28,262 bases of DNA, from positions 1-28,262 of the forward strand of contig JAIPFO010000001.1 of the NCBI GenBank assembly GCA_021736565.1, read 5' to 3'. Each line of letters opens with the position of its first letter. The first letter of the stretch is position 1. This stretch comes from Phycisphaerae bacterium. Lineage in GTDB: Bacteria; Planctomycetota; Phycisphaerae; Sedimentisphaerales; SM23-30. Below, piece after piece: positions 12,844 to 28,122 of this stretch. The notes beneath the pieces were generated by a model that was not told where the DNA came from, did not search any database, and worked only from the letters and a program-made list of their open reading frames with translations. Position numbers and translations under genes: made by a program.

Positions 12844-14352
12844 GTGATGAGATATATTTGGCATATCAATGGAATTCTGGCGGCGGTAGCCTTAGGGGTC
12901 CTGTATTTTGGGCTTACTGGAATACCTAAAGCCCTGATAACCGGAAGCGATACCACCGGGACAGTTTCCAGTTCTATGAATGGTAAAAATGGTTCATTAA
13001 CCGATAACAACGGTGATACCGCCATGGTTGAAGCGGCAAGGCTATTCACGAGGCGGTTTGGGCCGCCCATTGGGACAGTAAATATCCTTATCGAACCCCA
13101 GAACGCTATTACCCAGGGAGCACAATGGAAAATTAATACCAGCCCATTCCTCAATAGCGGCCAATTGGCCCAGAGTGTCGCAGCGGGGAATCACGTGATC
13201 GGGTTTAAGGAAATTGAAGGATACCATGCGCCCAAACCATTTAAAATAACGGTAGGACGTGAACAAACAGTAAAGGAAATTGGAAAATATATCCTGATCC
13301 CCCCCCCGGAATATGGCAAGTTACGCATAACGCTCGGTCCTGAGGGGATCGTGGGCAAAGGGGGTAAATGGAAGGTTGACAAGGGGGAATGGCAGGAAAG
13401 CGGCGCAACTTCAGAAAAAATATTAGTGGGAAGTCATCAGGTTACCTTTGCCGGTGTGGCGGATTACGATCCACCGGCGGCCATGAGCGTTACAATTGAA
13501 AAAGATCAAACGGTAGATCAAACGGCGGATTATAAACGGATTGATTATGGTTCAGTACTGGTCAATCTCTCGCCAGAGGATGCGGTAAAAGCCGGAGTCA
13601 AGTGGCGGGTCAAAGGGAATTCAACCTGGTATCAAAGCGGCGAGACCGATATTAAAGCCCGGGCAGGAACCCAAACCATTGAATTCCAAGGGACACAGCG
13701 ATGGAAAGCTCCTGCCGCAATAGCGGTTGACGTGGTCAAAGATGAGCTTTTCACTACGGAGGCGGTTTTTGAGTGGATTATTCTCAAACAGGGCTCGATC
13801 ATTGTAAAAATCATGCCAAACGATTCCACATTAACAATGGCTCAATGGCAGCTCAATGGCAAAGGCGATTGGTACAACAGTGATGAGAAGGTCGGCCCCA
13901 TTGATGAAGGGAAATATTCGATCAACTTCAAGCCGGTCGCCGGTTGGAATCCGCCGGATGCGATGAATGTAGAGGTTGTCATTGATCAGATAAGCGACCT
14001 GGAAGCCCTGTATCGTAAGCCCAAGCCGGCCCCTCCAGCCTTCACCCTGACGGCGACTATTGTATTGCCGCCCAAGGGTGGGATTGTCTGGGTGAAATTA
14101 CCCAAGGCCACACGGGACCATGTATTCCTGATCGGTGAGATGATCGATACGGACTATAAACTTATCGAGGTACGACACGGCATCGCGGTGGTCAACCGTG
14201 GTGGGTATGACTTCACCTTGACGATTCCCAAGCCATCGCCACCCAAACTAGCCCCCCCGAAGTCTACGACAACAGAAAAACCAATGATACCTTCTCGCCG
14301 TCCACCGATCCAGAAATCACCGATACCGCGAAAACCAAGTATTAAAAAATAA
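12844..14352 (+). CDS. GspC-like inner-membrane protein: TM anchor, four ~80-aa Ig/PEGA-like repeats, C-terminal HR (GspC/PilP-like) domain, Pro/Lys tail
   Basis: N-terminal TM (GILAAVALGVLYFGL); four repeats G(T/K/S)xxx...W...G...F...(Y/W)xxP; FTLTATIV...GIVWV...VFLIGEMIDTDYKLIEVRHGIAVVNRGG; located just upstream of gspD. Confidence 0.65.
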   Translation: MMRYIWHINGILAAVALGVLYFGLTGIPKALITGSDTTGTVSSSMNGKNGSLTDNNGDTAMVEAARLFTRRFGPPIGTVNILIEPQNAITQGAQWKINTSPFLNSGQLAQSVAAGNHVIGFKEIEGYHAPKPFKITVGREQTVKEIGKYILIPPPEYGKLRITLGPEGIVGKGGKWKVDKGEWQESGATSEKILVGSHQVTFAGVADYDPPAAMSVTIEKDQTVDQTADYKRIDYGSVLVNLSPEDAVKAGVKWRVKGNSTWYQSGETDIKARAGTQTIEFQGTQRWKAPAAIAVDVVKDELFTTEAVFEWIILKQGSIIVKIMPNDSTLTMAQWQLNGKGDWYNSDEKVGPIDEGKYSINFKPVAGWNPPDAMNVEVVIDQISDLEALYRKPKPAPPAFTLTATIVLPPKGGIVWVKLPKATRDHVFLIGEMIDTDYKLIEVRHGIAVVNRGGYDFTLTIPKPSPPKLAPPKSTTTEKPMIPSRRPPIQKSPIPRKPSIKK

Positions 14353-14437: not shown

Positions 14438-14935
14438 CTATGGCACGTAAAGTCGCCATTGATCAAGTTCTTTGAAAAAACAAAAGCGAAAAGTGAATTG
14501 ATCGACCTGGAGTCGACGGTTCGGGCCTTTGCGATGCTTCACGACAATACTGGCACTCGCCTGTTGTGGATCATCGTCAAACGTAATTTCGACGGTGTCC
14601 GCATCCCATTGCTGGATAATAACCGTTGCAGCCGATGAGCCCAGCAGCCTTCGAGCGGTCATAAGCCCGATAAGGCGGGGGTCATTTTGGGCGGAGGGGA
14701 ATCGCCCCGGCTCGATATAATTCGCCAGGGTTTCATACTGACGGGCCGCCAGAGCGACCAGGATCTTATCCGTCATGGTCCAGATGGCCCTGCGATGAGC
14801 CGCGAATTGCTCATCAGCCCCCCCCTGGCCCTCCAACCGACCGCCTGACGGGGAACAAGACACTAAAAAGAACATCCCCAGGGCAATAACCAGGGAGCGA
14901 TGTAAACAAACCATTGAGGAACTAAAATTATTCAT
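14438..14935 (-). CDS. Small hypothetical lipoprotein, possibly NTF2-like fold
   Basis: Lipobox-like FLVSC after a hydrophobic stretch; helical N-half then beta strands ending in W-R-L-Y; divergent from gspD. Confidence 0.65.
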   Translation of the reverse strand: MNNFSSSMVCLHRSLVIALGMFFLVSCSPSGGRLEGQGGADEQFAAHRRAIWTMTDKILVALAARQYETLANYIEPGRFPSAQNDPRLIGLMTARRLLGSSAATVIIQQWDADTVEITFDDDPQQASASIVVKHRKGPNRRLQVDQFTFRFCFFKELDQWRLYVP

Positions 14936-14966: not shown

Positions 14967-15157
14967 GCGTCATATTTTTTTGAAGTCAAATTTCTAAGTC
15001 ATCACAACTGATCTTGAAAACAGTTATTCGCTTTTGAGATTCAAATCAGATTGACACTATTTTCGCCATAAAGACGCCTGCATCATAAGAATTTTGAAGT
15101 CCTATTTCAAATCACCCTTGAGGCTGATTTGAAATATAAAAATCAACTTTTGACGCG
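14967..15157 (+). repeat. Two tandem copies of the intergenic repeat (D1 degenerate ~14967-15040; D2 15080-15157)
   Basis: D1 begins gcgtcatattttttgaagtc. D2 ends caacttttgacgcg and contains the hairpin tatttcaaatca-N10-tgatttgaaata. Confidence 0.8.
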
Positions 15158-15245
15158 GGAGTCAGTAAACATCCTTATAAAATAACATAATGTTACAACA
15201 ATGTAACCCACAGAGTCTAACATAATAACGGAGTTATTAGTTACT

Positions 15246-18200
15246 ATGATGAATTCTAATGATTATAATATGCCAGAATCCAATAAAAATGCAAGTACCA
15301 ATCGTAAGAAATTTCCGATTCGGCCCGGCCATATATCCCGATGGCTCAAATCCCACCAACGGCTGATCGTGCTGGGGGTGGTGATCTTGAGTATTATGGT
15401 CTGGAGCGGCGCAGGGAGTATTGGTGCCGAGGAAAATAAGTCCGATAATCAGGACGTTATTATAACCGACGAAGATGCGACCCCTTCGGCTAAGGAAACA
15501 GATGACGCAACAAATGATGACCAGAAGGTTGAATCGTCCAACGACATGGCCGATGCAAACGCTATAGAGGAGTTCTCTCCTGAAGACCTCCAAATGATGG
15601 AATTGATGGAGAGATGGGCCAAATCAGCTGAAGAAAACCCTGGTTCAGAAGAATCGAAAGATCTGGAAAAGCAACTGGAATCGGTCATGGAAAAAGCATT
15701 GCAGAAGTCCAATCCGACCCAGCCAGACCCTGTTGTTCTGCCCCCCAAAAAACCTGTTGTCAAAACGCAAAAAAACAATCCGGTTAAGCCCCCCATAAAA
15801 CCCAACGGCACCAAGCCTCCTGTCAAGCCGATAAAGCCTGTCCTACCCAATAAAACTACAATCAAGCCTACCAAATCGCCTATTCTGACCACTCCGACCC
15901 AAACCAGTACAGCCACGACAGCAACCCCGGCGGCTGTCAATGAGGACACCGACGCTAAAGTCGATCCGTTTACTCCACCGGTTGACCCGGATTCAGTTCA
16001 GATCAAGGTAAAAGATGACATCATCGACTTACAGGTTCTGATGGAACATGTGGGTAAGGAACTTCAATTAAACTTCCTGTATGACAGCGAGACTTACCCT
16101 GTCGGGAAGGTCAGACTGCAGCAGTATGGAAAAATTCCCCGTAATATGTTATTACCCTTACTGGAACATGTATTGCAAAAAGCAGGTTTTTCAATGGTAA
16201 AAGATGCGCCCTACATTCGGATCGTCAAAGAAACGGATGTCATCAAGAGCACACCGGTTTTCCCATCGGCTCATAATAATTTATCTGATGCGTCACCTGA
16301 ATCGCTGGTCACTCATATCGTTGAAATTGAATATGTACAAGCCAGTCAAGTCAAATCGGCCCTGGCACAGTTTACGACCTCATTGATCACTCAGATACCT
16401 GAGAGCAACATATTGATCCTGACCGAATATCCCAACAAATTAACACGATTGCTGGAAATTATTACATTCTTGGACCGCGCCGGCCCGGTCTCTCGGATGG
16501 AAGTATTGCATCCAAAATATTTACCCGTACAAGACCTTCAGAAAAAAATTGAAACGTTGATGACTGCGTTAAATGCGCAGCAGGCGGTTTCTTCGGGCGG
16601 TTCTTCCAGCGTAAACACTCCCACGCCCAACTTAAGTAAGATGTCACCGGCGGATCGAATGAAATATATTCGTGATCAACGCGCCAGGAAAGAGGCCGCG
16701 GCGAAAGCTCCAGGGACTTCCAGCACCACTGCGACGACCAAGCCCCTGGCGGCCAAGATGATCGCCGAGCCGCGTACCGAACGGCTGTTTGTGATCGGAA
16801 CCGATGATCAGATCGCCCAGGTGAAGCACTTATCAGACCTCTTTGATGTGCCGCAACCCGGCCCGGATATCTTTCTTGAATCCCTGCCGATGAAGCACGT
16901 GGAGGCCAAATCCGTTGAATCCCAGATCAAGGCCCTGTTCACGGAATTATATGAAGCCAAACCTGACCCGGCAATGGGTGGCAGCGACGCGAGGGTACCG
17001 ACCCCCATCTCGCGGACACCAAGCCGCTCCACGCCAAGCCGTTCTGCGCCTAATCCAGAGCCATCACTAACCGGCAGCAGTCCGAGTCATGGTCCATTTA
17101 TGTTGGTGGATGAACGGGTCAACCGGATATTGATCGTCGCCTCACGGGAAATGATTGACCAGGTAAAAGATTTACTGCTCGTTCTGGATATTCCCGTACC
17201 GGGCGCAGAGTTTCATCTGAATGTTTTTGAGTTTGAATATCTGCAAGCCGCTGATGCCGCCGAAAAACTCAATAAATTACTGGAAGCACTCGCCAGTCAG
17301 AAAACGAAAGAAGAACCATCACCGCCGACACCGCCAACGCCTTCGTCGCGAACCTCTATTTCATCGCGGACCCCGGTAAAAACGCCGAGCGAAAGCGGGT
17401 TTATTAAGCCGGGCGATGAAGGCCCGTTCATGATCACTGACGAACGGACCAATCGGCTACTGGTGGTAGGGACCGATGAACAGGTCGAACGGATCAGGGA
17501 CTTGCTCACGCTGCTGGATGTGCCATTGCCAGGGGGGGCAATTGTGATTAAACAGATCAAGATCCAATACGTCGAAGCCGAGACGGTCAGCGGGCAATTA
17601 AGCGAACTGATCGAAGCGATCAATAACCCCGATAAGGCCAAATCAGACAGTTCTCCCTCCCCCACCCCGCCCACCAGTTCGCGAACGTCATACCCCAGAC
17701 CTCCAAGCCCGGGAACAACACCCCAAACAAAAGGTTTTGTCAAAACCGGTGACATGGGTCCATTTATGCTGGTCGAGGAAAGAACCAACCGGCTGATCAT
17801 CGTCGGGACCGAAGAGCAGATCGTCCAGGTTGAAGAGTTACTGGGCATGCTGGATATTGCCGGTATTCAAATCAGGCTGGATGTGGTCGAGCTGAAATTT
17901 GTAGAGGCCGAAAGCGTGGCCGGTCAGATCGCCGAATTGATCGAGGCACTTAATAGCGGTAAACCCTCCCAGTCAAGTGTTAAATCTGGAACGAGCGAAG
18001 GGTCGCAACCTTCAACCCCAATAACTCCGATAAGAACATCCTCATCCTACAGGCCCCCTCCACAGGCCAGCCCATCCAAACAACTCCTCAAGACCTCGGA
18101 AGGAGGCCCATTCCTTGTTACCGATGGTCGAACGAACCGGTTACTGGTCGTCGGAACAGACGACCAGATTCGGCAGGTGCATGAACTGCTGGCGGTTCTG

Positions 18201-21098
18201 GATATTTCCGGCGAAGCGATCCTGATCGAAACCTATATCGTCGAACATGTGAATATTGAAAAAGTGACCGAACAACTCATGGAACTGGTTCCGGCACTTC
18301 GCAGCGACGAACCCAATAAAACCCCCGGAAAGCCTTCTTCGAATCGCACGAGCAGCACACCAACACGGTCAATGCCCGACGGGCTCAGAACGCCCTCCTC
18401 ATCCTCGTCGTCGTCACAAAGCAGTCGCTCACAAATGGTGAGCCCCTCCGAAGAGGGTCCATTATTGATCGCCGACCCCCGGACCTATCGGATTCTTGTC
18501 GTCGGAACCCAGGATCAGATTTCCCAGGTCGGTGACCTGCTGGTCATACTGGATGTGCCACTGAAAATTGAGATCCTGCCCTACCAGATGAAATATATCC
18601 CGGCAGACACTGCCGCTGAACAACTCAGCCAGTTATTGCAGGCCATTAACGTTGACGAGGACAGCTCGTCATCATCAGGCCGCCCAAAAACATCGCCTCA
18701 ATTAGTCGGACCGCCTCAGCCAGGTTCCCCGAGCAATCGCTCATCATTATCCTCGCGAAATCGCAGTTCTTCTTCCGGCCAGGGTGTCCAACTTGTCCAG
18801 GCCACCTCCAGCGGGCCCTATCTTCTGGCCGATGTAAGAACGAGTCGACTGATTATTATCGGTTCGGCACGTAAGGTCTCTGAGGCCCAGGAATTCCTCT
18901 CGCTACTGGATGTAAAAGTAGATCGTACGCTGGTATCACTACCGGTGAAACATGTCGAGCTTGAAACCATAACGAACCAGGTGGCCGATTTATTGGCGGT
19001 TTTGAACGAGCAGGAAGGCGCCGAGGCCTCTAGTAAGGGGTTATCCTCCTCGGGCCGCCGGTCGACACGAAGCAACACGACAGGGCGCACCGCGAACAGC
19101 GGTGGGATCACCGGGGGCATCACTCCCACCAATCAAACATCATCGTCCAGTAACAGTGTGGGCTCCTTGATCGAGATCATCCCGGCAGGGCCGTTTTTAC
19201 TGGCGAACGAACGAACCAGCCATCTGCTGGTGATCGGCAGTGTAAAACAGATCGAGCAGGTCCAGGATTTACTGAAGATGCTGGATGTTGACATGAACTT
19301 CAAACTCTACCCCGAGCAGATAACCAACGTTGCGGCCAGTGAGCTGGCCGGTCAGTTAGGAAACCTTATGGTATCGCTCACGGGTAAAGATCAAGTGTAT
19401 GGGGCCAGCTCCAGTGCCGGCAGTGCACGGAGCGGTTCCAGCCGAACGGGCAGTTCTACAAGCAGTCGAACCAATACCCCATCCGGGCAGACCATGATCA
19501 AAGTCACCGCCCAGGGCCCCTACCTGTTGCCCGATGACTCTACCAATCGATTACTGGTCGTAGCAACCGACAAACAGTATCAATCCGTCAAAGATTTACT
19601 GCCGGTATTGGATGTGTATAATGAATTCGGCCAGCGCCGATTGAAAACCTATCAGCCTAAATATGTCAATGCGACCGAAGTGATCAAGATACTGGATGAT
19701 TTGGGGATCACCAATAAGAAAGAATCAGGCGATATGCGACCGCGGGAGCGGGCGGGATTACTGGACAGGCCCGACCAGAGCGTCATTGCCGGCCAGCCCG
19801 GTGAAATGGCCTTTTTACCGGGAATGGAAGAACCGGATGTCTATGTCGCGGTACTGGAAACAATGAATAAGATTTTTGTCTACGGTCTGGAGTATCAGAT
19901 CAAGGGCATTGACGAGATCATGAAACATATCGACCTGGACCCCACCGATGCGTTTGGTCAATATGAGATCATTCCGCTGGAGAACCAGGATCCTGAATAT
20001 GTGTCCGATTGGCTCAGTGAGCTATTGGACACCGACCGCTATGAAAAGATCGGAGAGAACACGAAACTGGTTGACGGGGCGGAAGGCGCCCCGAAAATCG
20101 TTCCACTGGTCGAGATCTATTCGATCGGTGTTCGAGGTTCGGCCCGACAGCGAGAAGAGATCAAGAAGATAATCGACGTTCTGGACCGGCGAAAGCCCCA
20201 GGTCTTTGTTGAAGCAATTCTGGTACAATTAAATGAAAGTTCCGGGTTGAGCCTGGGCGTTCAGTTACAGGAAATATTTAAATCCGGCGGTGATAATATT
20301 TCGGTCCAGACCCCGTTTGGCTTCGGAGCGACGATGGGAACCAGTGGCGTTCTGAGCGGGTCCGGGTTAACGCTCGGTTATTATGATACAGATTTTGTCA
20401 AGGCCTCCATTGAAGCCATGGCGGATGAAGGCAATGGCAAAGTGGTCTCCATGCCCCGTATCACCGTGAATGACAATGAAGATGCGACGATGACCAGCGA
20501 ACGGGCAGAACCGACAACCGAGGTGGTGCTGCAGCCGGGTTCTGATACCACACGGGAAACCTTCAAAGGCTATGAAACCGCCGGGACAACACTGACGATT
20601 AAACCGCATATCAGTGAAGGTGATTTTCTGCAACTGGAGATCGGATTAAAGGTTGACAGCTTTGATGGAAAATCCCAGGGCAGTGTTCCGCCCCCCAAAA
20701 ACAGCAATGATATTAAAACAAATGTTACGGTTCCCAATAATATGATCGTTATCCTGGGTGGTTTGAAATCTCAGAACAATGGCACCTCGATAAGTAAAGT
20801 GCCTCTGCTGGGTGACCTGCCGCTTATCGGGTCACTGTTCAGAAGCGTCAACCATTCGGAGACCAGCGGTTATCTGTATGTGTTTGTCAAGGCCCAGATC
20901 ATTCGAAGTCCGGAAGATAAAAATAATCAAGCGGACTTTAGTGACCTGAAACGAATTTCCGAGAAAGCCTGGAACGAGAAAGAATCCCGAAAGATCAATT
21001 TCCGTGAGAAGCCGATCATTCCGGGTATCAAAATGAAAAAAGAAATGGATGACGAAGGCGACTCCAGCAGCCGGGAGACATTTTCCTCGCCCTACTAA
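15246..21098 (+). CDS. gspD: Giant type II secretion secretin (1950 aa): low-complexity N-terminus, N0, ~12 Secretin_N domains, secretin core, S-like tail
   Basis: N0 (DLQVLMEHVGKELQLNFLYD...LLEHVLQKAGF); repeated DERTNRLxxxGTxxQ...LD units; D..KPQVFVEA, MPRITVND, GTTLTIKPHI, IVILGGL, KVPLLGDLPLIGSLFR; directly upstream of gspE. Confidence 0.95.
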   Translation: MMNSNDYNMPESNKNASTNRKKFPIRPGHISRWLKSHQRLIVLGVVILSIMVWSGAGSIGAEENKSDNQDVIITDEDATPSAKETDDATNDDQKVESSNDMADANAIEEFSPEDLQMMELMERWAKSAEENPGSEESKDLEKQLESVMEKALQKSNPTQPDPVVLPPKKPVVKTQKNNPVKPPIKPNGTKPPVKPIKPVLPNKTTIKPTKSPILTTPTQTSTATTATPAAVNEDTDAKVDPFTPPVDPDSVQIKVKDDIIDLQVLMEHVGKELQLNFLYDSETYPVGKVRLQQYGKIPRNMLLPLLEHVLQKAGFSMVKDAPYIRIVKETDVIKSTPVFPSAHNNLSDASPESLVTHIVEIEYVQASQVKSALAQFTTSLITQIPESNILILTEYPNKLTRLLEIITFLDRAGPVSRMEVLHPKYLPVQDLQKKIETLMTALNAQQAVSSGGSSSVNTPTPNLSKMSPADRMKYIRDQRARKEAAAKAPGTSSTTATTKPLAAKMIAEPRTERLFVIGTDDQIAQVKHLSDLFDVPQPGPDIFLESLPMKHVEAKSVESQIKALFTELYEAKPDPAMGGSDARVPTPISRTPSRSTPSRSAPNPEPSLTGSSPSHGPFMLVDERVNRILIVASREMIDQVKDLLLVLDIPVPGAEFHLNVFEFEYLQAADAAEKLNKLLEALASQKTKEEPSPPTPPTPSSRTSISSRTPVKTPSESGFIKPGDEGPFMITDERTNRLLVVGTDEQVERIRDLLTLLDVPLPGGAIVIKQIKIQYVEAETVSGQLSELIEAINNPDKAKSDSSPSPTPPTSSRTSYPRPPSPGTTPQTKGFVKTGDMGPFMLVEERTNRLIIVGTEEQIVQVEELLGMLDIAGIQIRLDVVELKFVEAESVAGQIAELIEALNSGKPSQSSVKSGTSEGSQPSTPITPIRTSSSYRPPPQASPSKQLLKTSEGGPFLVTDGRTNRLLVVGTDDQIRQVHELLAVLDISGEAILIETYIVEHVNIEKVTEQLMELVPALRSDEPNKTPGKPSSNRTSSTPTRSMPDGLRTPSSSSSSSQSSRSQMVSPSEEGPLLIADPRTYRILVVGTQDQISQVGDLLVILDVPLKIEILPYQMKYIPADTAAEQLSQLLQAINVDEDSSSSSGRPKTSPQLVGPPQPGSPSNRSSLSSRNRSSSSGQGVQLVQATSSGPYLLADVRTSRLIIIGSARKVSEAQEFLSLLDVKVDRTLVSLPVKHVELETITNQVADLLAVLNEQEGAEASSKGLSSSGRRSTRSNTTGRTANSGGITGGITPTNQTSSSSNSVGSLIEIIPAGPFLLANERTSHLLVIGSVKQIEQVQDLLKMLDVDMNFKLYPEQITNVAASELAGQLGNLMVSLTGKDQVYGASSSAGSARSGSSRTGSSTSSRTNTPSGQTMIKVTAQGPYLLPDDSTNRLLVVATDKQYQSVKDLLPVLDVYNEFGQRRLKTYQPKYVNATEVIKILDDLGITNKKESGDMRPRERAGLLDRPDQSVIAGQPGEMAFLPGMEEPDVYVAVLETMNKIFVYGLEYQIKGIDEIMKHIDLDPTDAFGQYEIIPLENQDPEYVSDWLSELLDTDRYEKIGENTKLVDGAEGAPKIVPLVEIYSIGVRGSARQREEIKKIIDVLDRRKPQVFVEAILVQLNESSGLSLGVQLQEIFKSGGDNISVQTPFGFGATMGTSGVLSGSGLTLGYYDTDFVKASIEAMADEGNGKVVSMPRITVNDNEDATMTSERAEPTTEVVLQPGSDTTRETFKGYETAGTTLTIKPHISEGDFLQLEIGLKVDSFDGKSQGSVPPPKNSNDIKTNVTVPNNMIVILGGLKSQNNGTSISKVPLLGDLPLIGSLFRSVNHSETSGYLYVFVKAQIIRSPEDKNNQADFSDLKRISEKAWNEKESRKINFREKPIIPGIKMKKEMDDEGDSSSRETFSSPY

Positions 21099-21111
21099 TA
21101 AGAAATGCTTA

Positions 21112-21192
21112 CGCGTCCAAAGTTAATTTTGAATTCCGTGTCCATTTTGTATTGATGATCATTTTATACGACGCGAAGAATGGACTTCAAAA
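21112..21192 (-). repeat. Intergenic repeat, copy E (inverted, with ~17-bp insertion)
   Basis: Reverse complement reads ttttgaagtccattcttcgcgtcgtataaaatgat...ttaactttggacgcg. Confidence 0.75.
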
Positions 21193-21223
21193 CCACTGAG
21201 AACCTGGCGCCAAGAAGGAACTT

Positions 21224-22942
21224 ATGAAAGAACAGTTACTTGAGATAGCTCGCACGAAGCAGATATTAGACGCGGAGATGTTGGAGCATTTCATAACCCA
21301 ATATGAATCGACCCAGAGGGGCGATCATGATGGCGATGGAGAGACTCTGGACGCGGCCCTGCTGCGTTCGGGCCATTTCACCGAAGATGAGATCTTGCGA
21401 CTTTTTGGCGAATACCTGGAGATCCCCTTCCTGGAGCAGATCCAGCCGGCGATGGTCCCCGCGCATTTTGTCACGTCGGTCCCGTCCAATTACGCGCACC
21501 ATCATCACCTGGTGGCGACCGACCAGAACGATTCGACGATGACGATAGCGGTCTGCAAACCGTTGAGTTTGTATCCGCTGGACAATGTCGCCAAGATGGT
21601 CGGCCGGGCGGTCTCACCGGCCCTGGCGACCAAGGCCACGATCAATACCGCGATTAACGCCGCCTACGAACAGCGAACGACGGTATTGGAAGATGTGGCT
21701 GGTGATGTCGATAGCCATAGCCTGGAAGGGCTGCTGGGCGACGCCTCGAATTCCGAAGACCTTCTTGATGTCGTTAATCGTCCGCCCGTGATTCGCCTGG
21801 TCAATGACATCTTGTTTAAAGCCCTCCAGATGCGCACCAGTGATGTCCATATTCACCCGTTTGAACAGCGGGTCGTCATCCGCTATCGCATCGACGGCTT
21901 GCTCTATGACATGCTCACGCTGGATTATCGTACCCTCCCGGTCATTGTCTCACGTATTAAGGTGATGGCAGGGATGGATGTTGCCGAACGTCGCATGCCG
22001 CAGGATGGCCGGTGCAGTGTGCGGATCGGACCGCGGGAGATCGACCTGCGTGTCAGTACCGTGCCGACGGCCTATGGTGAACGGACGGTGCTGCGTCTGC
22101 TGGATAAAAGCTCCGGGGTGTATAACTTGAAGGACTTGGGGCTGGGCGAATCGGAGTTTGGCCGGATTGATGAATTGATCAAACGGCCGCACGGTATTTT
22201 CTTTGTCACCGGTCCGACCGGCAGCGGTAAAACGACCACACTCTACAGTTTTCTACAGCGAATTGATTCGACGACAAAAAATATTATTACCGTCGAAGAC
22301 CCGATCGAATATCAGCTTGACGGGATCAGCCAGATCCAGGTGGCCACCAAAAAAGGAATGACCTTTATCACCGCCCTGCGTCATGTCCTGCGACAGGACC
22401 CCGATGTCATTATGATCGGTGAAGTCCGTGACGAAGAAACCGCTCGCATGGTGATCCAGTCGTCCCTGACCGGCCACCTGGTGTTCAGCACGCTCCACAC
22501 CAACGACGCTTCCGGCGCGGTCACGCGTCTTCTGGATTTCGGGGTGGAACCCTACCTGGTGGCCTCCTCCGTCGCGGGTGTATTGGCCCAGCGGCTCGTG
22601 CGGCGACTATGCCCTCATTGCAAAGAAATAATCCCATCGGATTCAAAACAAATCCAGAAGCTGGGACTCAGTCATGCGGGATTTGAGAAAGTCTACCACA
22701 GCAAAGGCTGTGACAAGTGCTTCCAGACGGGCTACATGGGGCGAACGGGGATATATGAACTCATGACGATCAATGACGACATACGTCAGGGCATCTATCA
22801 GCGGGGCACCGCCGGTGCGATAAAAAAATCGGCGATTGAAGCGGGCATGACCACGCTGAGAATGGATGGCCTTCGAAAAGTGGAAGAAGGCGTGACGTCC
22901 CTGGAGGAAGTTTTACGCATAGCACAATCGGATGACGTCTGA
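21224..22942 (+). CDS. gspE: Type II secretion ATPase GspE/PulE
   Basis: SDVHIHP, RYRIDG, DVAERRMPQDG, Walker A GPTGSGKTT, TVEDPIEY, LRQDPDVIMIGEVRD, STLHTNDA, tetracysteine CPHC...CDKC. Confidence 0.96.
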   Translation: MKEQLLEIARTKQILDAEMLEHFITQYESTQRGDHDGDGETLDAALLRSGHFTEDEILRLFGEYLEIPFLEQIQPAMVPAHFVTSVPSNYAHHHHLVATDQNDSTMTIAVCKPLSLYPLDNVAKMVGRAVSPALATKATINTAINAAYEQRTTVLEDVAGDVDSHSLEGLLGDASNSEDLLDVVNRPPVIRLVNDILFKALQMRTSDVHIHPFEQRVVIRYRIDGLLYDMLTLDYRTLPVIVSRIKVMAGMDVAERRMPQDGRCSVRIGPREIDLRVSTVPTAYGERTVLRLLDKSSGVYNLKDLGLGESEFGRIDELIKRPHGIFFVTGPTGSGKTTTLYSFLQRIDSTTKNIITVEDPIEYQLDGISQIQVATKKGMTFITALRHVLRQDPDVIMIGEVRDEETARMVIQSSLTGHLVFSTLHTNDASGAVTRLLDFGVEPYLVASSVAGVLAQRLVRRLCPHCKEIIPSDSKQIQKLGLSHAGFEKVYHSKGCDKCFQTGYMGRTGIYELMTINDDIRQGIYQRGTAGAIKKSAIEAGMTTLRMDGLRKVEEGVTSLEEVLRIAQSDDV

Positions 22943-22957
22943 CCCCATCGTCCTAAG

Positions 22958-22972
22958 TCAACTTTTGACGCG
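22958..22972 (+). repeat. Right-end fragment of the intergenic repeat (copy F)
   Basis: tcaacttttgacgcg, 13 bp before the gspF ATG; identical to the end of copy D2. Confidence 0.7.
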
Positions 22973-22985
22973 AGAGTTAATTATT

Positions 22986-24206
22986 ATGCCAACCTTTGAA
23001 TACATCGCTTTAGATCGTCAGGGAAAACAGGTTCGCGGCAGCATCGCCGCTGAATCGGCTTCCGCTGCGCGCAAACTGATGCGGACCCGGCAGCTGCATA
23101 CCAAAAAGCTGCGGTCTGTCAGCGAGGCATCCCACAGCGGCAGCTTTGAACTGGGCCAGTTATTCAGCAGTAAACGCCGGCGAATGGTCTTGGAGTTCAC
23201 CAAGCAATTGGCCACGATGATCAAGGCGGATGTCAAATTGACCGAATCGCTGGGGGTCATGATCGCGCAATCCACCGATCCAAAGTTCACCCAGATATTG
23301 CAGAATATCCGTGACCAGCTTCTCTCGGGTGAAAACCTGGCCGATGGGCTCAGGGAATATCCCGGTTGGTTTGACACGATCTATGTCTCGATGGTGCGGG
23401 TCGGTGAAGCGACAGGCAACCTGGGCCGATCGCTGAATCTGCTGAGCGAATATATCGGTAAACGCCAGAAACTGGAAACCAAGGTCAAATCGGCCCTGAC
23501 CTATCCGGCGGTACTGGTGGTGATCTGTCTCCTGGCCACCGTGTTTTTAATGACAGTCGTTGTACCGAAGCTGGCGAAGATTATTATCAGTAGCGGTAAG
23601 GAACTACCCGCCGTGACACAAATCATGATGAATACCAGTAATTTTCTGATTAGCTGGTGGTGGCTGGTACTTATCGCCCTGGCGTTTGGCAGCTGGATGT
23701 TACGACAATTTATCCGATCGAACAAAGGCCGGACCCTGTTTGACCGGTTGATATTGAGAATACCGGTTATTGGCGAATTGATGCGTCAGAGTATTGTCGC
23801 ACGATTTTCATCGACGCTTGCCGCACTGATTCGCAGCGGGATGCCGATTGCCGACAGTCTCAAGATCGTCGCCGATGTCACAGGTAATACGATCATGAAT
23901 AAAGCGGTTCGCGAGGCGCGGGATCGCATTATCGGCGGGGCCGATATCGCCACACCTCTCCGTGAAAGTAAAGTCGTCGGACCGGCGGTGGCCCATATGA
24001 TCTCGGTGGGCGAGCGATCGGGCGAATTGGAATCCATGCTCGTTACCGTTGCCAAGGATATCGAAGAAGCGACCGATGAGACGGTTCAGCGGATCAGCTC
24101 GGTGATCGAACCGGTGATCATTGTTGTCATGGCAGTCGTTGTCGGGCTGATTATTTACTCGATTGTCCTGCCGATCATGCAGGTGTCCGATATTGGAGGG
24201 ATATAA
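22986..24206 (+). CDS. gspF: Type II secretion inner-membrane platform protein GspF/PilC
   Basis: MPTFEYIALDRQGKQVRGSIAAES, FTKQLATM, MVRVGEATGNL, ALTYP, MISVGERSGEL, SVIEP. Start moved from 22932 to ATG 22986. Confidence 0.95.
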   Translation: MPTFEYIALDRQGKQVRGSIAAESASAARKLMRTRQLHTKKLRSVSEASHSGSFELGQLFSSKRRRMVLEFTKQLATMIKADVKLTESLGVMIAQSTDPKFTQILQNIRDQLLSGENLADGLREYPGWFDTIYVSMVRVGEATGNLGRSLNLLSEYIGKRQKLETKVKSALTYPAVLVVICLLATVFLMTVVVPKLAKIIISSGKELPAVTQIMMNTSNFLISWWWLVLIALAFGSWMLRQFIRSNKGRTLFDRLILRIPVIGELMRQSIVARFSSTLAALIRSGMPIADSLKIVADVTGNTIMNKAVREARDRIIGGADIATPLRESKVVGPAVAHMISVGERSGELESMLVTVAKDIEEATDETVQRISSVIEPVIIVVMAVVVGLIIYSIVLPIMQVSDIGGI

Positions 24207-24268: not shown

Positions 24269-24397
24269 TGATTCAATGCGTTATCTCGCGGGCATGAATT
24301 TGTGTACAAAAAAAGTGCGAAATTCAACCGAATGAACCTTAAGGAATATGAAACCATGAAATATAACAGACACATTTTATTTTGTAAGGAGTTTTTG

Positions 24398-24859
24398 ATG
24401 ATGAGAAAGACAGTTACTTTAAGCAAGGACCGGAACCGTGCGGGTTTCAGTCTGGTAGAATTAATGGTGGTCATTGTGATCATCGGGCTACTGGCCGGCG
24501 TGGTCGGGGTGAATGTTATTGACATGATTTACAAAGGGAAAGTCGGCGCGGCCAAAGCACAGATGGCAACTTTCGAAACAGGTATTGATAATTTCAAAAT
24601 CGATACCGGCCAATACCCCGTGGAATTAGCGGAATTGGCCAATCCGGGAGACATCACCGGTGCCAGCCCGACCGGATACCTCAAAGGTGCCACCGAAATT
24701 CCCCTGGACCCATGGAACAATGAATATGTTTATGAACTGACCGGGGACAGTATCACACCCTATACCTTGTATTGTACCGGAGCCGATGGCATGGATGGCG
24801 CCGAAAATGAAGAAGGTCGCGACTTCAATGTTAAAGGTTACCTGGATGCTGTCGAGTAA
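24398..24859 (+). CDS. gspG: Major pseudopilin GspG
   Basis: AG|FSLVELMVVIVIIGLLAG, NFKIDTGQYP, PLDPWNNEYVY, GADG; TAAGGAG RBS before ATG 24398. Confidence 0.95.
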   Translation: MMRKTVTLSKDRNRAGFSLVELMVVIVIIGLLAGVVGVNVIDMIYKGKVGAAKAQMATFETGIDNFKIDTGQYPVELAELANPGDITGASPTGYLKGATEIPLDPWNNEYVYELTGDSITPYTLYCTGADGMDGAENEEGRDFNVKGYLDAVE

Positions 24860-24891: not shown

Positions 24892-25470
24892 ATGCTGATG
24901 GGCAGAATAACAATGACAATCCCAAAAAGTAAAACCTTTCGCCAGTGTTCCCCCAGCGGCTACGTTCTGGTGGAACTGGCGGTTGTCATTACCCTGATGG
25001 CCCTGTTAGTCGGGATTGTCGTGGTTCCCTCTGTTGGCCCGATACGCCGGGCCAGAGTCCATGACGATATTTCAAAATTTTGCCAGACGCTGCGATTGGT
25101 GGCCGAAGAGGCCGTGCTGCAAAACCGTCGGTTCACGATCGTGATCGATGTGACCAACGGCTATTACAACGTCTATGAAGAAAAGGCTAAAACCGATTAT
25201 GACATGTATGACGAACCGGTACTCGGCCAGGGAAGCCTGGATATCAGCTACATTGAGCAGGCCGTTTTCCAGGATGGCAAACACACGCTCTCAGGGAATA
25301 TGGAACTCAAAGCAACCCCGAACGGCTGGCAACAGTCGGTTCTGCTTGACCTGATAGATGACCGGATGGAGCAGCCCCATTACATCCGCTTTGACCAGGG
25401 GACCACCCGGGTCATGGTATCACGGCAGAAGCTGGAATTACCCGCGGTGAAGAAAGACCTATCGCTTTGA
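24892..25470 (+). CDS. gspH: Minor pseudopilin GspH-like
   Basis: SG|YVLVELAVVITLMALLVG followed by ...LRLVAEEAVLQ; follows gspG. Start uncertain (24892, 24898 or 24913). Confidence 0.8.
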   Translation: MLMGRITMTIPKSKTFRQCSPSGYVLVELAVVITLMALLVGIVVVPSVGPIRRARVHDDISKFCQTLRLVAEEAVLQNRRFTIVIDVTNGYYNVYEEKAKTDYDMYDEPVLGQGSLDISYIEQAVFQDGKHTLSGNMELKATPNGWQQSVLLDLIDDRMEQPHYIRFDQGTTRVMVSRQKLELPAVKKDLSL

Positions 25471-25503
25471 ATAACGGACCATCGAATGCCCGTGTGATAA
25501 ATA

Positions 25504-26256
25504 ATGACGCGAACAGATGTTACAACTAAAAATACCGCCAACGTGAGTGCCGAAACTCACCGCGGCCACCAGCGACCCGGCTTTACGCTGATAGAAGCGG
25601 TGGCGGCCATGTTCATTTTGACGCTGGCGATGACAGGGATCATCGTAGCCTATCATCGCACTTTGGAGTCCGTGGGTGAGCAGATCCTCCGGGAACGGGC
25701 ACTGGCCGTGGCACAACGCCATATGGAGTCTCTCCTGGGCACCCTGGAAGAACCCAACAGTATTGTCACGTCGGGGCATGATAAGATCGACCCGTTTTTC
25801 AACTGGAAGATGGAACTGAAACGGATCGCCGTAGGCGAAAAAAAGGCCCGTTCCGATGGGGCCAATACGGTGATCAGTGCCCGGGTGACCGTCTCGTGTG
25901 ACCGGGAAGGCGCCAAATCGTTTAAGCCGATATCCCTGACACGGTATTTTTCCAAACTCAAACCCACAGAAGGTAATGCCATAGCGGTGCCCCTGGAAAT
26001 GGAGATGCCCGAAGATGAACAATGGTATCAGGATCTGGAAAAAGAACTGGGGCGCAAGCCGACCCCGGACGACATCATGGCCCATTTTCTAAAAACGATG
26101 ATCGCCCCCAACGACAATGACCGGGACGCGGATAATAGACGGACAGAAAAGGACGATGGGGCAGGCCGTAATAAGGATAATGGCGAAAGTGATGTGTTTA
26201 ATAAAAAAATCGAGGTATTGAACGAAGAAGACCTTCTGAAATTATTGCAGGAATAA
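25504..26256 (+). CDS. gspI: Minor pseudopilin GspI-like with long charged C-terminal extension
   Basis: PG|FTLIEAVAAMFILTLAMTGII...ERALAVAQRHME...FNWKMEL; position between H and J. Confidence 0.75.
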   Translation: MTRTDVTTKNTANVSAETHRGHQRPGFTLIEAVAAMFILTLAMTGIIVAYHRTLESVGEQILRERALAVAQRHMESLLGTLEEPNSIVTSGHDKIDPFFNWKMELKRIAVGEKKARSDGANTVISARVTVSCDREGAKSFKPISLTRYFSKLKPTEGNAIAVPLEMEMPEDEQWYQDLEKELGRKPTPDDIMAHFLKTMIAPNDNDRDADNRRTEKDDGAGRNKDNGESDVFNKKIEVLNEEDLLKLLQE

Positions 26257-26258
26257 CG

Positions 26259-26843
26259 ATGCGGCCACATGCTTTTTCAGTATTAGAATTGATCGTGACC
26301 CTGACGATCGTGGCGTTACTCACCGTCGCGGTCCTGGGACTGTTGAATGGAACGACCGCGCAAAGTGCGCGGGTTAATCAGCGTATGGAGCAGATGGGTG
26401 CGATTAATATGTGCATGGACCGGCTGATGGATGATGTGATCAAGGCCGCTGAAGACGACACCCGGTGGCATGTTAAAAAAGGCTATCGTCAGCAAATGAA
26501 AACATCCCATCTGACCATCCAGCGAATGGGCGGCGGTGAAAAAAGCGACTTGATATGGCAGATCGACTGGATCGCCACGCCCAGTGAGGATGGCGAGGAT
26601 CTAACCTTATATCGCCGGGAGAAAACCGGCAAGAAAAATGACGAAACGGATGTGTTTATCCCGCTGTGCGAACATTTGTATTCGTTCGACGTGCAAATGA
26701 TCAACGAAGAGGGACTGGACGACCCCAATGCCGCCCCGGCGGTCATCCAGGTAAAGGCCGAACTGTTCCGGATGCCCGAACATGAACCGGATTTTTTACT
26801 GCCGGTCAATCAAACCTATTGCCTGCGGCGATTTGGCAAATAA
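26259..26843 (+). CDS. gspJ: Minor pseudopilin GspJ-like
   Basis: HA|FSVLELIVTLTIVALL...MDRLMDDV...LTLYRRE; position between I and K. Confidence 0.78.
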   Translation: MRPHAFSVLELIVTLTIVALLTVAVLGLLNGTTAQSARVNQRMEQMGAINMCMDRLMDDVIKAAEDDTRWHVKKGYRQQMKTSHLTIQRMGGGEKSDLIWQIDWIATPSEDGEDLTLYRREKTGKKNDETDVFIPLCEHLYSFDVQMINEEGLDDPNAAPAVIQVKAELFRMPEHEPDFLLPVNQTYCLRRFGK

Positions 26844-26877
26844 TCAATACCCCGATGGGGTGCGTAAGAAACAACAG

Positions 26878-28122
26878 ATGGAAAGACATTCATCACAATT
26901 GAATACGAAAGGCTCGCGCATCAACAAGCGAGGGTTCGTGCTGATGCTGACGTTAATGATGCTGGTATTGATCACCAGCGTGATCGTCAACTTTCAGGCG
27001 GACACCACCCTGCATGTGCGTGCCAGTACATTTCGCCAGGATTATGTGCAATGTCGGTACGCGGCCGAATCCGGAATGATTGCCGGGAAGTTTCTGGTCA
27101 TTGAGCTCCTCACCGATAGAAAAGCCCTGACTGCTATCAAACCCGGCAGCAGCCAAAAGAAGAAAACCATCGCCCTGGACCCCAATGCGCTGGACGACCC
27201 CAACACCCTCGACGACCTGATCAAAAATATACTGGCGGACCCCAATGCGCTGGAATTTGAAGAGGCACCCCTGGAAGAGAAATCCCAACGGAAGATGGAG
27301 TTACTTTTAAAGGAGAAGAGGATCCAGGTGGGCAAGGCCGACGTGTTGGTCCAGATCTTTGACGAAACCGGTAAGCTGCCGATGATGTGGGTGGCACAAT
27401 CCCCCTATATCGGCACCAAGGACCCCGATCTCCTCAAAAATCTCGGGAACTATCTCGGAGCCCCCCCGGCAACGTCCAGACGGGCTAAAAAAATTGCGGA
27501 TGACATCTCAAAACCCTTAAATATCCCCGCTGCGTTTAATTCTGTTCAACAGGACGGGAGCCGTACCAGCAGCTCCCGCCGTGCGACGAGCAGCTCTCAG
27601 CAGCAATGGAAAGTACGCGGGCTTCGCCTGTCAAGCAAAAAGCGAGCCGAACACAGCAAACAGCGGTACGATTCCATGGCGAGCTTTGCATCCACATGGA
27701 ACCGGGAGGTGCAACCCGACACAGATAATGACGTGCTACTGGAACCGCTGAACGCGCATCCCGGGGCATTTTCAGATTACCTGGGCACCTGGGGTCACGA
27801 CAAGGTCAACATCAATACCGCACCGGTCGAAGTACTTGAAGCGGCCTTAAAGCCATTGGGCGTCACACGGGCCATGGCCGAAAAGATCGTGACATTGCGT
27901 GAGGAGAAGCCGATAGGCCATCCCACAGCGTTACGTCAGTTCGATGAGTTCGAGGCATTGATCCCCGCGCTGGTCGCCTTGACCATGCCCTTGAGTAATA
28001 CCTTTACCATTCGTGTTACGGCCACGTTAGGCCGGACGGAATATACATTGTTTTCAGCGGTTTATAAATCCCCCTTTGCTGATGGCGGGATTATGACACA
28101 AGCTATTTATGCAGGAGAATAA
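26878..28122 (+). CDS. gspK: Minor pseudopilin GspK
   Basis: KRG|FVLMLTLMMLVLI (no Glu+5, typical of GspK), CRYAAESG, IFDETGKL, KVNINTAPVEVLEA, FTIRVTA. Start moved from 26782 to ATG 26878. Confidence 0.88.
   Translation: MERHSSQLNTKGSRINKRGFVLMLTLMMLVLITSVIVNFQADTTLHVRASTFRQDYVQCRYAAESGMIAGKFLVIELLTDRKALTAIKPGSSQKKKTIALDPNALDDPNTLDDLIKNILADPNALEFEEAPLEEKSQRKMELLLKEKRIQVGKADVLVQIFDETGKLPMMWVAQSPYIGTKDPDLLKNLGNYLGAPPATSRRAKKIADDISKPLNIPAAFNSVQQDGSRTSSSRRATSSSQQQWKVRGLRLSSKKRAEHSKQRYDSMASFASTWNREVQPDTDNDVLLEPLNAHPGAFSDYLGTWGHDKVNINTAPVEVLEAALKPLGVTRAMAEKIVTLREEKPIGHPTALRQFDEFEALIPALVALTMPLSNTFTIRVTATLGRTEYTLFSAVYKSPFADGGIMTQAIYAGE

What the first reader, a model, noticed from the sequence alone, without database searches (positions are those of the whole stretch)
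16302..20204. Giant secretin with about 12 stacked Secretin_N domains instead of 3
Seen: between N0 and the secretin core there is one N1-like domain (from SLVTHIVEIEYVQA) and 11 further ~105-125-aa units. Each runs beta strand, (Y/H)(V/L)xA helix, loop, D/E-x-R-T-N-R-L-x-x-x-G, helix, L-D. The array spans about 1300 aa. Eight consecutive units share a GP(F/Y/L) motif before the second strand (HGPF, EGPF, MGPF, GGPF, EGPL, SGPY, AGPF, QGPY), which points to tandem amplification of one ancestral unit. Known: Proteobacterial GspD has N0-N3, and each N domain forms one ring of the periplasmic tube. Inference: this secretin could build a tube several times longer than the canonical one, an 'extended-barrel' T2SS suited to the wide periplasm of planctomycetes or to handling very large substrates.
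Basis: partly seen in the sequence, partly recalled or inferred. Interest (0 to 1): 0.85.

Follow-up and report, generated by a model that had tools for sequence, protein, structure and literature searches.

The report
Twelve-ring type II secretion secretin
This is a real 1,950-residue outer-membrane secretion pore with 12 ring-building domains instead of the usual three. It is a mid-sized member of a large, apparently unpublished class of elongated secretins, and its relatives vary from 4 to 12 domains, which could be used to test how such machines set their length.

Summary
ORF 15246-21098 (+) encodes a 1,950-aa GspD secretin heading a gspD-E-F-G-pseudopilin-K operon. Pfam finds 12 Secretin_N stretches, a weak N0 and one pore domain.

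Ten units are 101-122 aa because each carries a 29-49-aa disordered Ser/Pro/Thr/Arg/Gly-rich loop between helix 1 and strand 2. AlphaFold2 gives beta-alpha-loop-beta-beta-alpha for each unit, and Foldseek's top 38 hits are all secretin N-domains.

It is not an assembly artefact. The repeats are only 60-78% identical at DNA level over short stretches, and an independent assembly tiles the gene.

It is not unique:
- Orthologues in the same family (Phycisphaerae, Sedimentisphaerales-like) carry 4-12 units, with lineage-specific amplification of the central units.
- Other lineages hold more than 100 sequence clusters of 2,000-5,500 aa with 13-39 units.
- This scan had already noted giants with 34-53 units on other DNA.
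- I found no paper on any of these.

New here: the syntenic inner-membrane GspC-like gene upstream carries 0 Ig-like repeats where the secretin has 4-5 units, and 2-4 where it has 7-12.

A stacked conduit of about 45-55 nm is the best reading, but it is inferred, not shown.

The parts
15246..21098 (+). gspD: 1,950-aa type II secretion secretin
   Evidence: TIGR02517 scores 425.7 bits against a cut-off of 351. Best solved relative is E. coli K-12 GspD 5wq7, E 1.4e-36.
15357..15428 (+). Hydrophobic signal peptide or anchor (aa 38-61, ...LIVLGVVILSIMVWSGAGSIGA) after a 37-aa N-region
   Evidence: Read from the translation. Whether it is cleaved or acts as an anchor was not tested.
15429..16007 (+). 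Low-complexity linker (aa 62-254): an acidic stretch, then Lys/Pro-rich and Thr-rich stretches
   Evidence: Composition P 13%, K 11%, T 10%, E 9%, D 9%. Its resemblance to the TonB Pro-rich spacer is from my own memory and was not tested.
16008..16280 (+). N0 domain (about aa 255-345)
   Evidence: Pfam PF21305 E 0.0019, below the cut-off. phmmer aligns aa 261-441 to N0-N1 of 5wq7, i-E 5e-5. Relatives P0002 and P0010 pass the cut-off.
16305..16481 (+). Unit 1: short canonical N1-type Secretin_N (aa 354-412)
16491..19955 (+). Units 2-11: ten long N3-type Secretin_N units (101-122 aa). Each has a 29-49-aa disordered S/P/T/R/G-rich loop between helix 1 and strand 2. Units 3-10 carry GP[FYL] before strand 2.
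   Evidence: In the AF2 model of aa 655-990, cores have pLDDT 66-76 and loops are below 50. The Foldseek top 38 hits are all secretin N-domains.
19968..20198 (+). Unit 12: last Secretin_N (aa 1575-1651), equivalent to N3 next to the pore
   Evidence: Its helix 2 aligns to helix 2 of N3 in 5wq7.
20199..20924 (+). Secretin pore domain (Pfam aa 1724-1887; the alignment to GspD runs aa 1633-1890)
20925..21098 (+). Charged C-terminal tail (aa 1894-1950) plus stop codon; possible S-domain equivalent
   Evidence: Read from the sequence only; not tested.
12844..14352 (+). GspC-like partner (P0091, 502 aa): TM helix, four Ig-like beta-sandwich repeats of about 78 aa, a small C-terminal beta domain (HR/PilP-like), and a Pro/Lys tail
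   Evidence: AF2 mean pLDDT 83.7. Foldseek finds tandem Ig-fold stalk proteins. Atlas named hits for aa 390-470 are T2SSC, PilP and HofP at 0.77-0.79, a lead only. It lies upstream of the secretin on the same contig in 14 of the 17 same-family genomes that have a match; in two more the best match is on another contig.
14438..14935 (-). Conserved 165-aa lipoprotein (lipobox FLVSC), NTF2/SnoaL-like. It lies between the GspC-like gene and gspD on the opposite strand.
   Evidence: Present in about 20 orthologous loci. Its role is unknown; a pilotin or accessory role is a candidate.
21224..22942 (+). GspE ATPase
   Evidence: PF00437 E 5e-136, plus MshEN.
22932..24206 (+). GspF platform protein
   Evidence: PF00482 E 4e-56.
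24302..24859 (+). GspG major pseudopilin
   Evidence: PF08334 and N_methyl.
24892..26843 (+). Three small ORFs (24892-25470, 25504-26256, 26259-26843), probably minor pseudopilins
   Evidence: N_methyl motif in the second (E 3.3e-5), sub-threshold in the third (E 0.0086, no stretch counted), no Pfam hit for the first.
26782..28122 (+). GspK-like minor pseudopilin
   Evidence: PF03934 E 3.4e-5, 24.6 bits against a cut-off of 24.2.

Best explanation
The gene encodes the outer-membrane secretin (GspD) of a type II secretion system. The host is a Phycisphaerae (Sedimentisphaerales-like) bacterium from lake water.

Between N0 and the pore it has 12 ring-building Secretin_N domains:
- one short N1;
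- ten long N3-type units, each with a disordered Ser/Pro/Thr-rich loop of 29-49 aa at the helix-1/strand-2 position;
- one last N3 next to the pore.

Most likely the units, joined by linkers of only 3-6 residues, stack as successive oligomeric rings. The periplasmic vestibule would then be roughly 45-55 nm long instead of about 20 nm.

The length is evolutionarily adjustable. The central unit has been duplicated repeatedly and independently in related genera, giving 4 to 12 units. The inner-membrane GspC-like protein encoded just upstream has gained Ig-like spacer domains in the genomes whose secretin is long. So the whole trans-envelope machine seems to have been lengthened.

Shown: gene integrity, domain count, fold, operon context, copy-number series, co-occurrence with the lengthened partner.

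Inferred: ring stacking, tube length, wide periplasm, loop position.
For: Identity and context
- Domain content. Operon.
- Solved relatives are all T2SS GspD first.

Fold
- The AF2 units have beta-alpha-loop-beta-beta-alpha topology.
- Foldseek's best 38 PDB hits are all secretin N-domains, E down to 3.6e-7.
- Linkers are 3-6 aa. In PulD, N1-N3 'pack tightly' (PMC6882859).

Copy-number series
- Orthologues in 21 same-family genomes have open frames of 1,040-1,967 aa with 4-12 units.
- In G002 and G001 the central units are 64-84% identical to each other, against 55-66% to any unit elsewhere. The penultimate unit is a positional orthologue across genomes: 50-78% identical across genomes, about 28% to its own central units.
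- The loops keep their length (32-50 aa) and their low-hydrophobic composition across the family.

The partner
- Ig repeats per GspC-like protein against N units per secretin: Ig 0 with N 4-5; Ig 2 with N 7; Ig 3 with N 7-10; Ig 4 with N 8-12. Naive Spearman 0.86.

Precedent and reality of the gene
- Thermus PilQ uses six N rings to span a wide periplasm (PMC5745081).
- Planctomycetes have an enlarged periplasm (PMC5394234).
- Not an artefact.
Against: - No oligomer was modelled. AF2 gave low inter-domain confidence (pTM 0.27), so the stacking geometry is unsupported.
- The N0/HR complex prediction scored 0.00, which is uninformative.
- The HR-like identity of the partner's last domain rests on language-model scores below 0.9 and on synteny. 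There is no Pfam or PDB sequence hit, and no GspC or PilP appears among the top 50 whole-model Foldseek hits.
- The N-unit/Ig-repeat association is driven mostly by the split between short and long forms. The gene tree is unresolved (2 of 17 inner branches starred), so the number of independent events is unknown.
- No ultrastructure is known for this lineage.
- If the secretin alone reached the inner membrane, a longer GspC would not be needed, so the geometry of the two parts is unclear.
Confidence: 0.62

Rival explanations
1. Only the last one to three units form ordered rings under the pore. The central array is a flexible, partly disordered tether or curtain. It might be a spacer to peptidoglycan, a substrate-docking surface, or a shock absorber, rather than a closed tube.
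For: N0-N2 of canonical secretins are flexible and poorly resolved in most structures (PMC6882859). AF2 gave no confident inter-unit geometry (pTM 0.27). One third of each unit is disordered loop.
Against: The linkers are only 3-6 aa. The cores of all units are conserved in every orthologue. Thermus PilQ shows that six N domains do stack.
Confidence: 0.2
2. The machine is not a classical exoprotein T2SS. The long secretin would serve another cargo or direction: an exopolysaccharide nozzle, a fibre linked to crateriform-type envelope complexes, or macromolecule uptake into the periplasm. This concerns cargo and is compatible with the stacked-ring architecture.
For: T2SS secretins are required for slime secretion in cyanobacteria and myxobacteria (PMC12475490). 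Planctomycete crateriform structures form 'press stud-like' links between the two membranes and carry fibres (PMC5394234). GspL, GspM and a recognisable GspC family hit are missing from the window.
Against: TIGR02517 (GspD equivalog) is above its cut-off, while PilQ, SctC and MshL models are far below theirs. GspE, F, G and a GspK-like gene follow directly. The contig ends 140 bp after gspK, so L and M may lie beyond it.
Confidence: 0.15
3. Assembly artefact or decaying gene: a mis-assembled repeat array or a pseudogene.
For: The source is a 71%-complete MAG of 290 contigs at low depth, about 7.5x.
Against: The frame is uninterrupted for 1,950 codons. DNA repeats are too diverged to mis-assemble. 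An independent assembly tiles the gene with one mismatch. Independent genomes carry 10-12-unit orthologues.
Confidence: 0.02

Closest known systems
Canonical T2SS secretin GspD/PulD/XcpQ (PDB 5wq7, 5wq8, 6hcg, 5wln)
   Same: Same order of N0, N-domains and secretin pore. Same operon partners (GspE, F, G, K). Best sequence and fold matches. TIGR02517 is above its cut-off.
   Different: It has 12 N-domains instead of 3 (N1-N3) and 1,950 aa instead of about 650. There is a low-complexity linker of about 190 aa before N0. Ten units carry the variable helix-1/strand-2 insertion that canonical secretins have only in N3.
Thermus thermophilus PilQ (N0-N5, six stacked rings, 35 nm; PMC5745081)
   Same: Extra beta-alpha-beta-beta-alpha N rings lengthen the periplasmic part, which the authors interpret as spanning a wide periplasm. 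N domains carry long insertions.
   Different: PilQ is a type IV pilus and DNA-uptake secretin of 757 aa with 5 N rings plus N0. The protein here is a T2SS GspD with 12 plus N0. Its extra units are a tandem amplification of one unit type, and their number varies between genera.
Giant N-domain-array secretins of Planctomycetota, Verrucomicrobiota and marine metagenomes (unpublished as far as I found; e.g. P0047 at 4,199 aa, P0072 at 4,123 aa, P0101 at 5,532 aa)
   Same: The same principle: tandem Secretin_N arrays before one pore domain.
   Different: They are only about 25% identical to this protein. They have 15-27 Pfam stretches and 13-39 by my profile. Their units are mostly shorter. The window's subfamily is separate. 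Within it this protein scores highest of 1.84 billion representatives.
InvG (T3SS secretin) N3 variable loop (PMC6155069)
   Same: [quoted passage not shown] It is disordered in most structures and is thought to form the luminal periplasmic constriction in the closed state.
   Different: InvG has one such loop per subunit. This protein has ten, and they are Ser/Pro/Thr-rich.
GspC/PulC (TM, linker, HR domain binding N0; PDB 3OSS, 6hcg)
   Same: The upstream protein P0091 has an N-terminal TM helix, a periplasmic spacer and a small C-terminal beta domain. It is encoded next to the secretin.
   Different: Its spacer is four Ig-like domains rather than a flexible linker. It has no PDZ or coiled coil and no Pfam T2SSC hit. 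HR identity is only a lead.

Membership tests
T2SS secretin GspD (TIGR02517 / PF00263 + PF03958 + PF21305) | C-terminal secretin pore domain | tested here: met
   PF00263 E 2.7e-35 over the full model, 1-169. Aligns to 5wq7 residues 305-575.
T2SS secretin GspD (TIGR02517 / PF00263 + PF03958 + PF21305) | Whole-protein score above the curated equivalog cut-off, and better than the PilQ, SctC and MshL models | tested here: met
   TIGR02517 scores 425.7 bits against 351.35. PilQ scores 170.7 against 284, SctC 133.6 against 238, MshL 75 against 250. The summed score is inflated by the repeated N units.
T2SS secretin GspD (TIGR02517 / PF00263 + PF03958 + PF21305) | N0 domain at the N-terminus of the periplasmic part | tested here: inconclusive
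   PF21305 scores 18.4 bits, below the cut-off of 27. However, phmmer aligns aa 261-441 to N0-N1 of 5wq7 (i-E 5e-5), and homologues P0002 and P0010 pass the cut-off.
T2SS secretin GspD (TIGR02517 / PF00263 + PF03958 + PF21305) | Secretin_N (ring-building, KH-like beta-alpha-beta-beta-alpha) domains | tested here: met
   12 Pfam stretches. AF2 topology. Foldseek's top 38 hits are secretin N-domains.
T2SS secretin GspD (TIGR02517 / PF00263 + PF03958 + PF21305) | Encoded with the GspE ATPase, GspF platform protein, GspG pseudopilin and GspK | tested here: met
   The same order is seen in relatives L146-L148.
T2SS secretin GspD (TIGR02517 / PF00263 + PF03958 + PF21305) | Forms a 12-15-mer with stacked N rings and secretes folded periplasmic proteins | not testable with these tools
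   No oligomer model was made and there is no experiment.
GspC (for the upstream P0091) | Bitopic inner-membrane protein whose HR domain binds secretin N0 | tested here: inconclusive
   The TM helix and C-terminal beta domain are modelled at pLDDT above 90. Atlas named hits are T2SSC, PilP and HofP at 0.77-0.79. There is no Pfam hit and no PDB profile hit. The complex prediction scored 0.00, which is uninformative.
Type IV pilus secretin PilQ | AMIN domains or the PilQ subfamily model; pilMNOP neighbours | tested here: not met
   TIGR02515 scores 170.7 bits, below its cut-off of 284. No AMIN hit. The neighbours are gsp-type.

The most novel reading that the evidence does not exclude
The helix-1/strand-2 loops sit where the InvG N3 variable loop forms the luminal constriction. 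With 10 loops per subunit and about 15 subunits, some 150 disordered Ser/Pro/Thr/Arg-rich chains would line a conduit about 50 nm long. They would act as a polymer brush, a permeability barrier or sliding surface spread along the channel rather than a single gate. Separately, the number of N units in the secretin and of Ig domains in the GspC-like partner would be co-evolving molecular rulers that set the distance between the two membranes at the machine.
Probability: 0.2. Interest if true: 0.8.

Novelty: new variant of a known kind. Interest (0 to 1): 0.6.

Why it matters
Every secretin studied so far has at most six periplasmic rings. The Thermus PilQ paper (PMC5745081) calls that complex one of the largest characterised.

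This family gives a natural series of one orthologous T2SS secretin with 4, 5, 7, 8, 9, 10 and 12 rings in related genera. The inner-membrane partner changes in step. That makes some open questions testable by comparative cryo-ET or cryo-EM:
- How does a T2SS bridge the periplasm?
- How is its length matched to the envelope?
- How far must the pseudopilus travel?

At 12 rings it is also smaller, and so easier to express and image, than the 30-50-ring giants found elsewhere in the PVC group.

If the loops line the lumen, it would be a new kind of channel lining.

On its own, though, the gene is one more member of a widespread class, not a singular oddity.

Tried and rejected
- Complex prediction: N0-N1 (aa 250-415) with the HR-like domain of P0091 (aa 385-470) scored ipSAE 0.00. 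The tool says this counts neither for nor against binding.
It returned mostly distant (24-34% identical) secretins of many phyla, so it was of no use for a named survey of close relatives.
- Tree of the C-terminal 520 aa of 20 orthologues: only 2 of 17 inner branches were starred. Independent gains could not be counted, and no phylogenetically corrected test of N units against Ig repeats was possible.
- Whole-model Foldseek of P0091 was dominated by its Ig repeats, so it could not test the HR domain. A profile search of PDB sequences gave only designed 'Cake' beta-propeller proteins at E above 0.03.
- Pfam found nothing for P0091 or the lipoprotein.
- TRF and the repeat finder found no recent DNA-level array. 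I therefore rejected recent tandem duplication and assembly error for this genome.
- My first-pass HMM undercounted short N1 units and split some units. The counts were reconciled by hand, and for several orthologues they are good to plus or minus 1.
- Nine literature searches found no description of secretins with more than six N domains. A 2025 review of the phylum does not mention secretins or T2SS at all.
Full report
**1. What is there**

The window is one whole contig (C120) of a 2.94-Mb, 290-contig, 71%-complete MAG. Public runs place the sequence in a lake-water metagenome.

ORF 15246-21098 (+) is uninterrupted for 1,950 codons.
- Pfam gives Secretin_N (PF03958) with 12 separate stretches (E 6e-76).
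- It gives one Secretin pore domain at aa 1724-1887 (E 2.7e-35) and a sub-threshold N0 at aa 261-326.
- NCBIfam's GspD equivalog TIGR02517 is above its cut-off (425.7 against 351 bits). The PilQ, SctC, HofQ and MshL models are far below theirs.
- Directly downstream lie GspE, GspF, GspG, three small ORFs of which one carries a clear prepilin N-methylation motif, and a GspK-like gene.
- The best solved relatives are all T2SS GspD pores. The best is E. coli K-12 5wq7. Its N0-N1 aligns to aa 261-441, and its N3 helix 2 plus pore aligns to aa 1633-1890.

**2.

The unit boundaries, in aa, are: 354-412, 416-536, 541-650, 655-760, 765-872, 877-988, 992-1105, 1109-1224, 1228-1349, 1353-1458, 1464-1570 and 1575-1651.

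GP[FYL] occurs exactly eight times, in units 3-10.

One correction: ten units, not eleven, are long (101-122 aa). The last is about 77 aa.

The extra length of the long units is a loop of 29-49 aa between helix 1 and strand 2. Over the 380 loop residues the composition is S 26%, P 14.5%, T 10%, R 8%, G 8%. Units are joined by only 3-6 residues.

**3. Fold**

I ran AlphaFold2 on aa 655-990 (three units) with a 68-row alignment of unit triplets from homologues.
- Each unit comes out as strand-helix-[disordered loop]-short strand-strand-strand-helix.
- Cores have pLDDT 66-76 and loops are below 50.
- pTM is 0.27, so the relative placement of the units is not predicted.
- Foldseek against the PDB returns secretin periplasmic domains as its top 38 hits: ExeD, D. 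radiodurans GspD, EpsD, GspD, PulD, XcpQ N0-N2, InvG and HofQ. E goes down to 3.6e-7.

**4. Not an artefact**

- TRF finds no tandem array in the DNA.
- The repeat families are only 60-78% identical over 44-64 nt.
- Logan's independent contigs of the probable source run tile 15000-21300 with one mismatch, at even depth (about 7.5), with no conflicting joint inside the gene.
- Independent genomes carry orthologues of similar size (below).

**5. Relatives**

In the held genomes of the same family (25 genomes, 18 genera), 21 have the orthologue. Open frames run from 1,040 to 1,967 aa.

I fetched these genes and counted units with my own HMMs. Counts are good to plus or minus 1.

| Units | Genomes |
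|---|---|
| 12 | G000 |
| 11-12 | G002 (gene cut by the contig end; the same as NCBI GCA_001303695.1) |
| 10 | G001, G013, G015 |
| 9 | G009, G011 |
| 8 | G003, G004, G008, G033, G034 |
| 7 | G012 |
| 4-5 | G005, G006, G007, G010, G016, G017, G031 |

Other families of the same order have 4-5 units.

Two named NCBI relatives are labelled 'Sedimentisphaerales bacterium' and 'Phycisphaerae bacterium'.

Ten or more units is thus neither the norm nor unique in the clade.

**6. How the array grew**

Within this protein, the structured cores of units 3-10 are 25-52% identical to each other, so the duplications are old here.

In G002 and G001 the picture differs:
- The central units are 64-84% identical to one another.
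- They are only 55-66% identical to any unit of another genome.
- That indicates independent, more recent amplification (or concerted evolution) in those lineages.

The penultimate unit is a positional orthologue everywhere. It is 50-78% identical across genomes and about 28% identical to its own central neighbours.

So the ends of the array are fixed and the middle is the expandable module.

A marine-sediment run holds 90-95% identical pieces of the 5' and 3' parts of the gene. It holds nothing of 16477-19200, which fits faster divergence of the array.

Loop length (32-50 aa) and low-hydrophobic S/T/P/R/G-rich composition are kept across the whole family, while the loop sequences are not.

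**7. Not a record**

The word-index search already returned secretins of 2,085-2,699 aa from other lineages, about 25% identical.
- Pfam counts 21, 20, 15 and 8 Secretin_N stretches in four of them.
- Members of their clusters reach 4,199 and 4,123 aa, with 27 stretches each.

I then searched 1.84 billion representatives with a profile of 69 long-loop units.
- The window's protein is the top scorer (856 bits, 10 long units).
- Its own subfamily follows, with 3-11 long units.
- After that come more than 100 clusters of 2,000-5,532 aa with 13-39 matched stretches.

This scan's earlier notes describe such giants, with 34-53 units, in many Planctomycetota and Verrucomicrobiota genomes, also without a paper.

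My own nine literature searches found none either.
- The Thermus PilQ paper calls its six rings one of the largest characterised.
- A 2025 review of Planctomycetota never mentions secretins or T2SS.

**8. The partner upstream**

I followed a first-reader note on this window (e1-5289577) and examined ORF 12844-14352 (P0091, 502 aa).

AF2 with 15 orthologues gives a confident model, mean pLDDT 83.7:
- a TM helix;
- a short disordered stretch;
- four beta-sandwich domains of about 78 aa;
- a small C-terminal beta domain;
- a Pro/Lys tail.

Foldseek matches tandem Ig-fold stalk proteins.

For the last domain, the only named language-model neighbours are T2SSC, PilP, HofP and XpsN clusters, at 0.75-0.79. 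That is a lead only.

A match to the gene is found in 17 of the 18 other same-family genomes first searched. In 14 of them it lies on the secretin's contig, just upstream of the secretin.

Its Ig-repeat number goes with the secretin's unit number.

| Ig repeats | Secretin units | Genomes or proteins |
|---|---|---|
| 0 | 4-5 | G005, G007, G010, G017 |
| 2 | 7 | G012 |
| 3 | 8-10 | G008, G009, G011, G015 |
| at least 3 | 7-8 | G003, P0011 (both cut by a contig end) |
| 4 | 8-12 | G000, G001, G002, G004, G013, G033, G034, P0006 |

- G014 also has four Ig repeats. Its secretin gene is interrupted by stop codons, so at least 7 units could be counted and it is left out of the table.
- The naive Spearman coefficient is 0.86.
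- Kin are not independent, the gene tree is unresolved, and most of the signal is the split between short and long forms.
- In the one supported small clade (92/94), G012, G011 and G000 go 7/2, 9/3 and 12/4.
- G005 is an exception of another kind. Its protein has seven tandem HR-like domains.

**9. Mechanism**

The best reading is a T2SS whose periplasmic vestibule is lengthened by stacked N rings.

Dimensions are inferred from two measured complexes:
- PulD with N0-N3 is 20 nm long (PMC6882859).
- PilQ with six rings is 35 nm long (PMC5745081).

At my estimate of 3-4 nm per ring, nine extra rings would give about 47-56 nm. Four Ig domains could add about 15 nm on the inner-membrane side, based on the typical Ig domain length as I recall it.

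In PulC the linker forms a cage that spans the gap below N0. Here that linker seems to be replaced by a rigid Ig stalk.

[quoted passage not shown] That insertion is disordered in most structures. It is thought to form the luminal constriction of the closed channel, and it threads outward when the needle fills the lumen (PMC6155069). By homology the loops may face the lumen, but this is inference.

Planctomycetes have an enlarged periplasm (PMC5394234). No ultrastructure is available for this lineage.

**10. Verdict**

This is a real, intact secretin. It is a new variant of a known kind, and a mid-sized member of a widespread, apparently undescribed class of elongated secretins.

Its particular value lies in three things:
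- the graded 4-12 series among close relatives;
- the lineage-specific amplification of the central units;
- the co-lengthened partner.

The tube itself remains unshown.

Noticed in passing
window 12844-14352 (+): GspC-like protein made of a TM helix, four Ig-like repeats and an HR/PilP-like domain. It lies upstream of the secretin in relatives. Its repeat number (0, 2, 3 or 4) tracks the secretin's N-unit number.
   Followed up: yes
window 14438-14935 (-): 165-aa lipoprotein (lipobox FLVSC) with NTF2/SnoaL-like features. It is conserved between the GspC-like gene and gspD, always on the opposite strand, in about 20 orthologous loci. It is a candidate secretin accessory or pilotin of a fold not known for pilotins.
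   Followed up: partly
window 15429-16007 (+), aa 62-254 of the secretin: An acidic stretch followed by a Lys/Pro-rich stretch between the signal or anchor sequence and N0. It resembles the TonB-type rigid periplasmic spacer (from my own memory, not tested). The GspC-like protein also ends in a Pro/Lys tail.
   Followed up: no
G000 contig C200 (L137:3448-6405, -): A second secretin in the same MAG (986 aa, cut by the contig end) also has about 6 N-like units. The MAG has six secretin-domain genes in all.
   Followed up: partly
L133 (G005:C25:46800-49300): In one genus with a short (4-unit) secretin, the GspC-like protein has seven tandem HR-like domains and no Ig repeats.
   Followed up: no
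window 10903-12348 (+) and L145:1-1473: A multihaem cytochrome (Cytochrome_C554 hit) lies upstream of the GspC-like gene both in the window and in G002. It may be a conserved neighbour or a cargo.
   Followed up: no
window 16477-19200: A marine-sediment run holds pieces 90-95% identical to both ends of gspD but none of the central array. The array seems to diverge, or change copy number, faster than the ends.
   Followed up: no
L035 (G014:C32:1-7000): The orthologous secretin gene of G014 is interrupted (1 TGA and 1 TAA within matches). It may be a frameshifted or decaying copy, or an assembly error.
   Followed up: no
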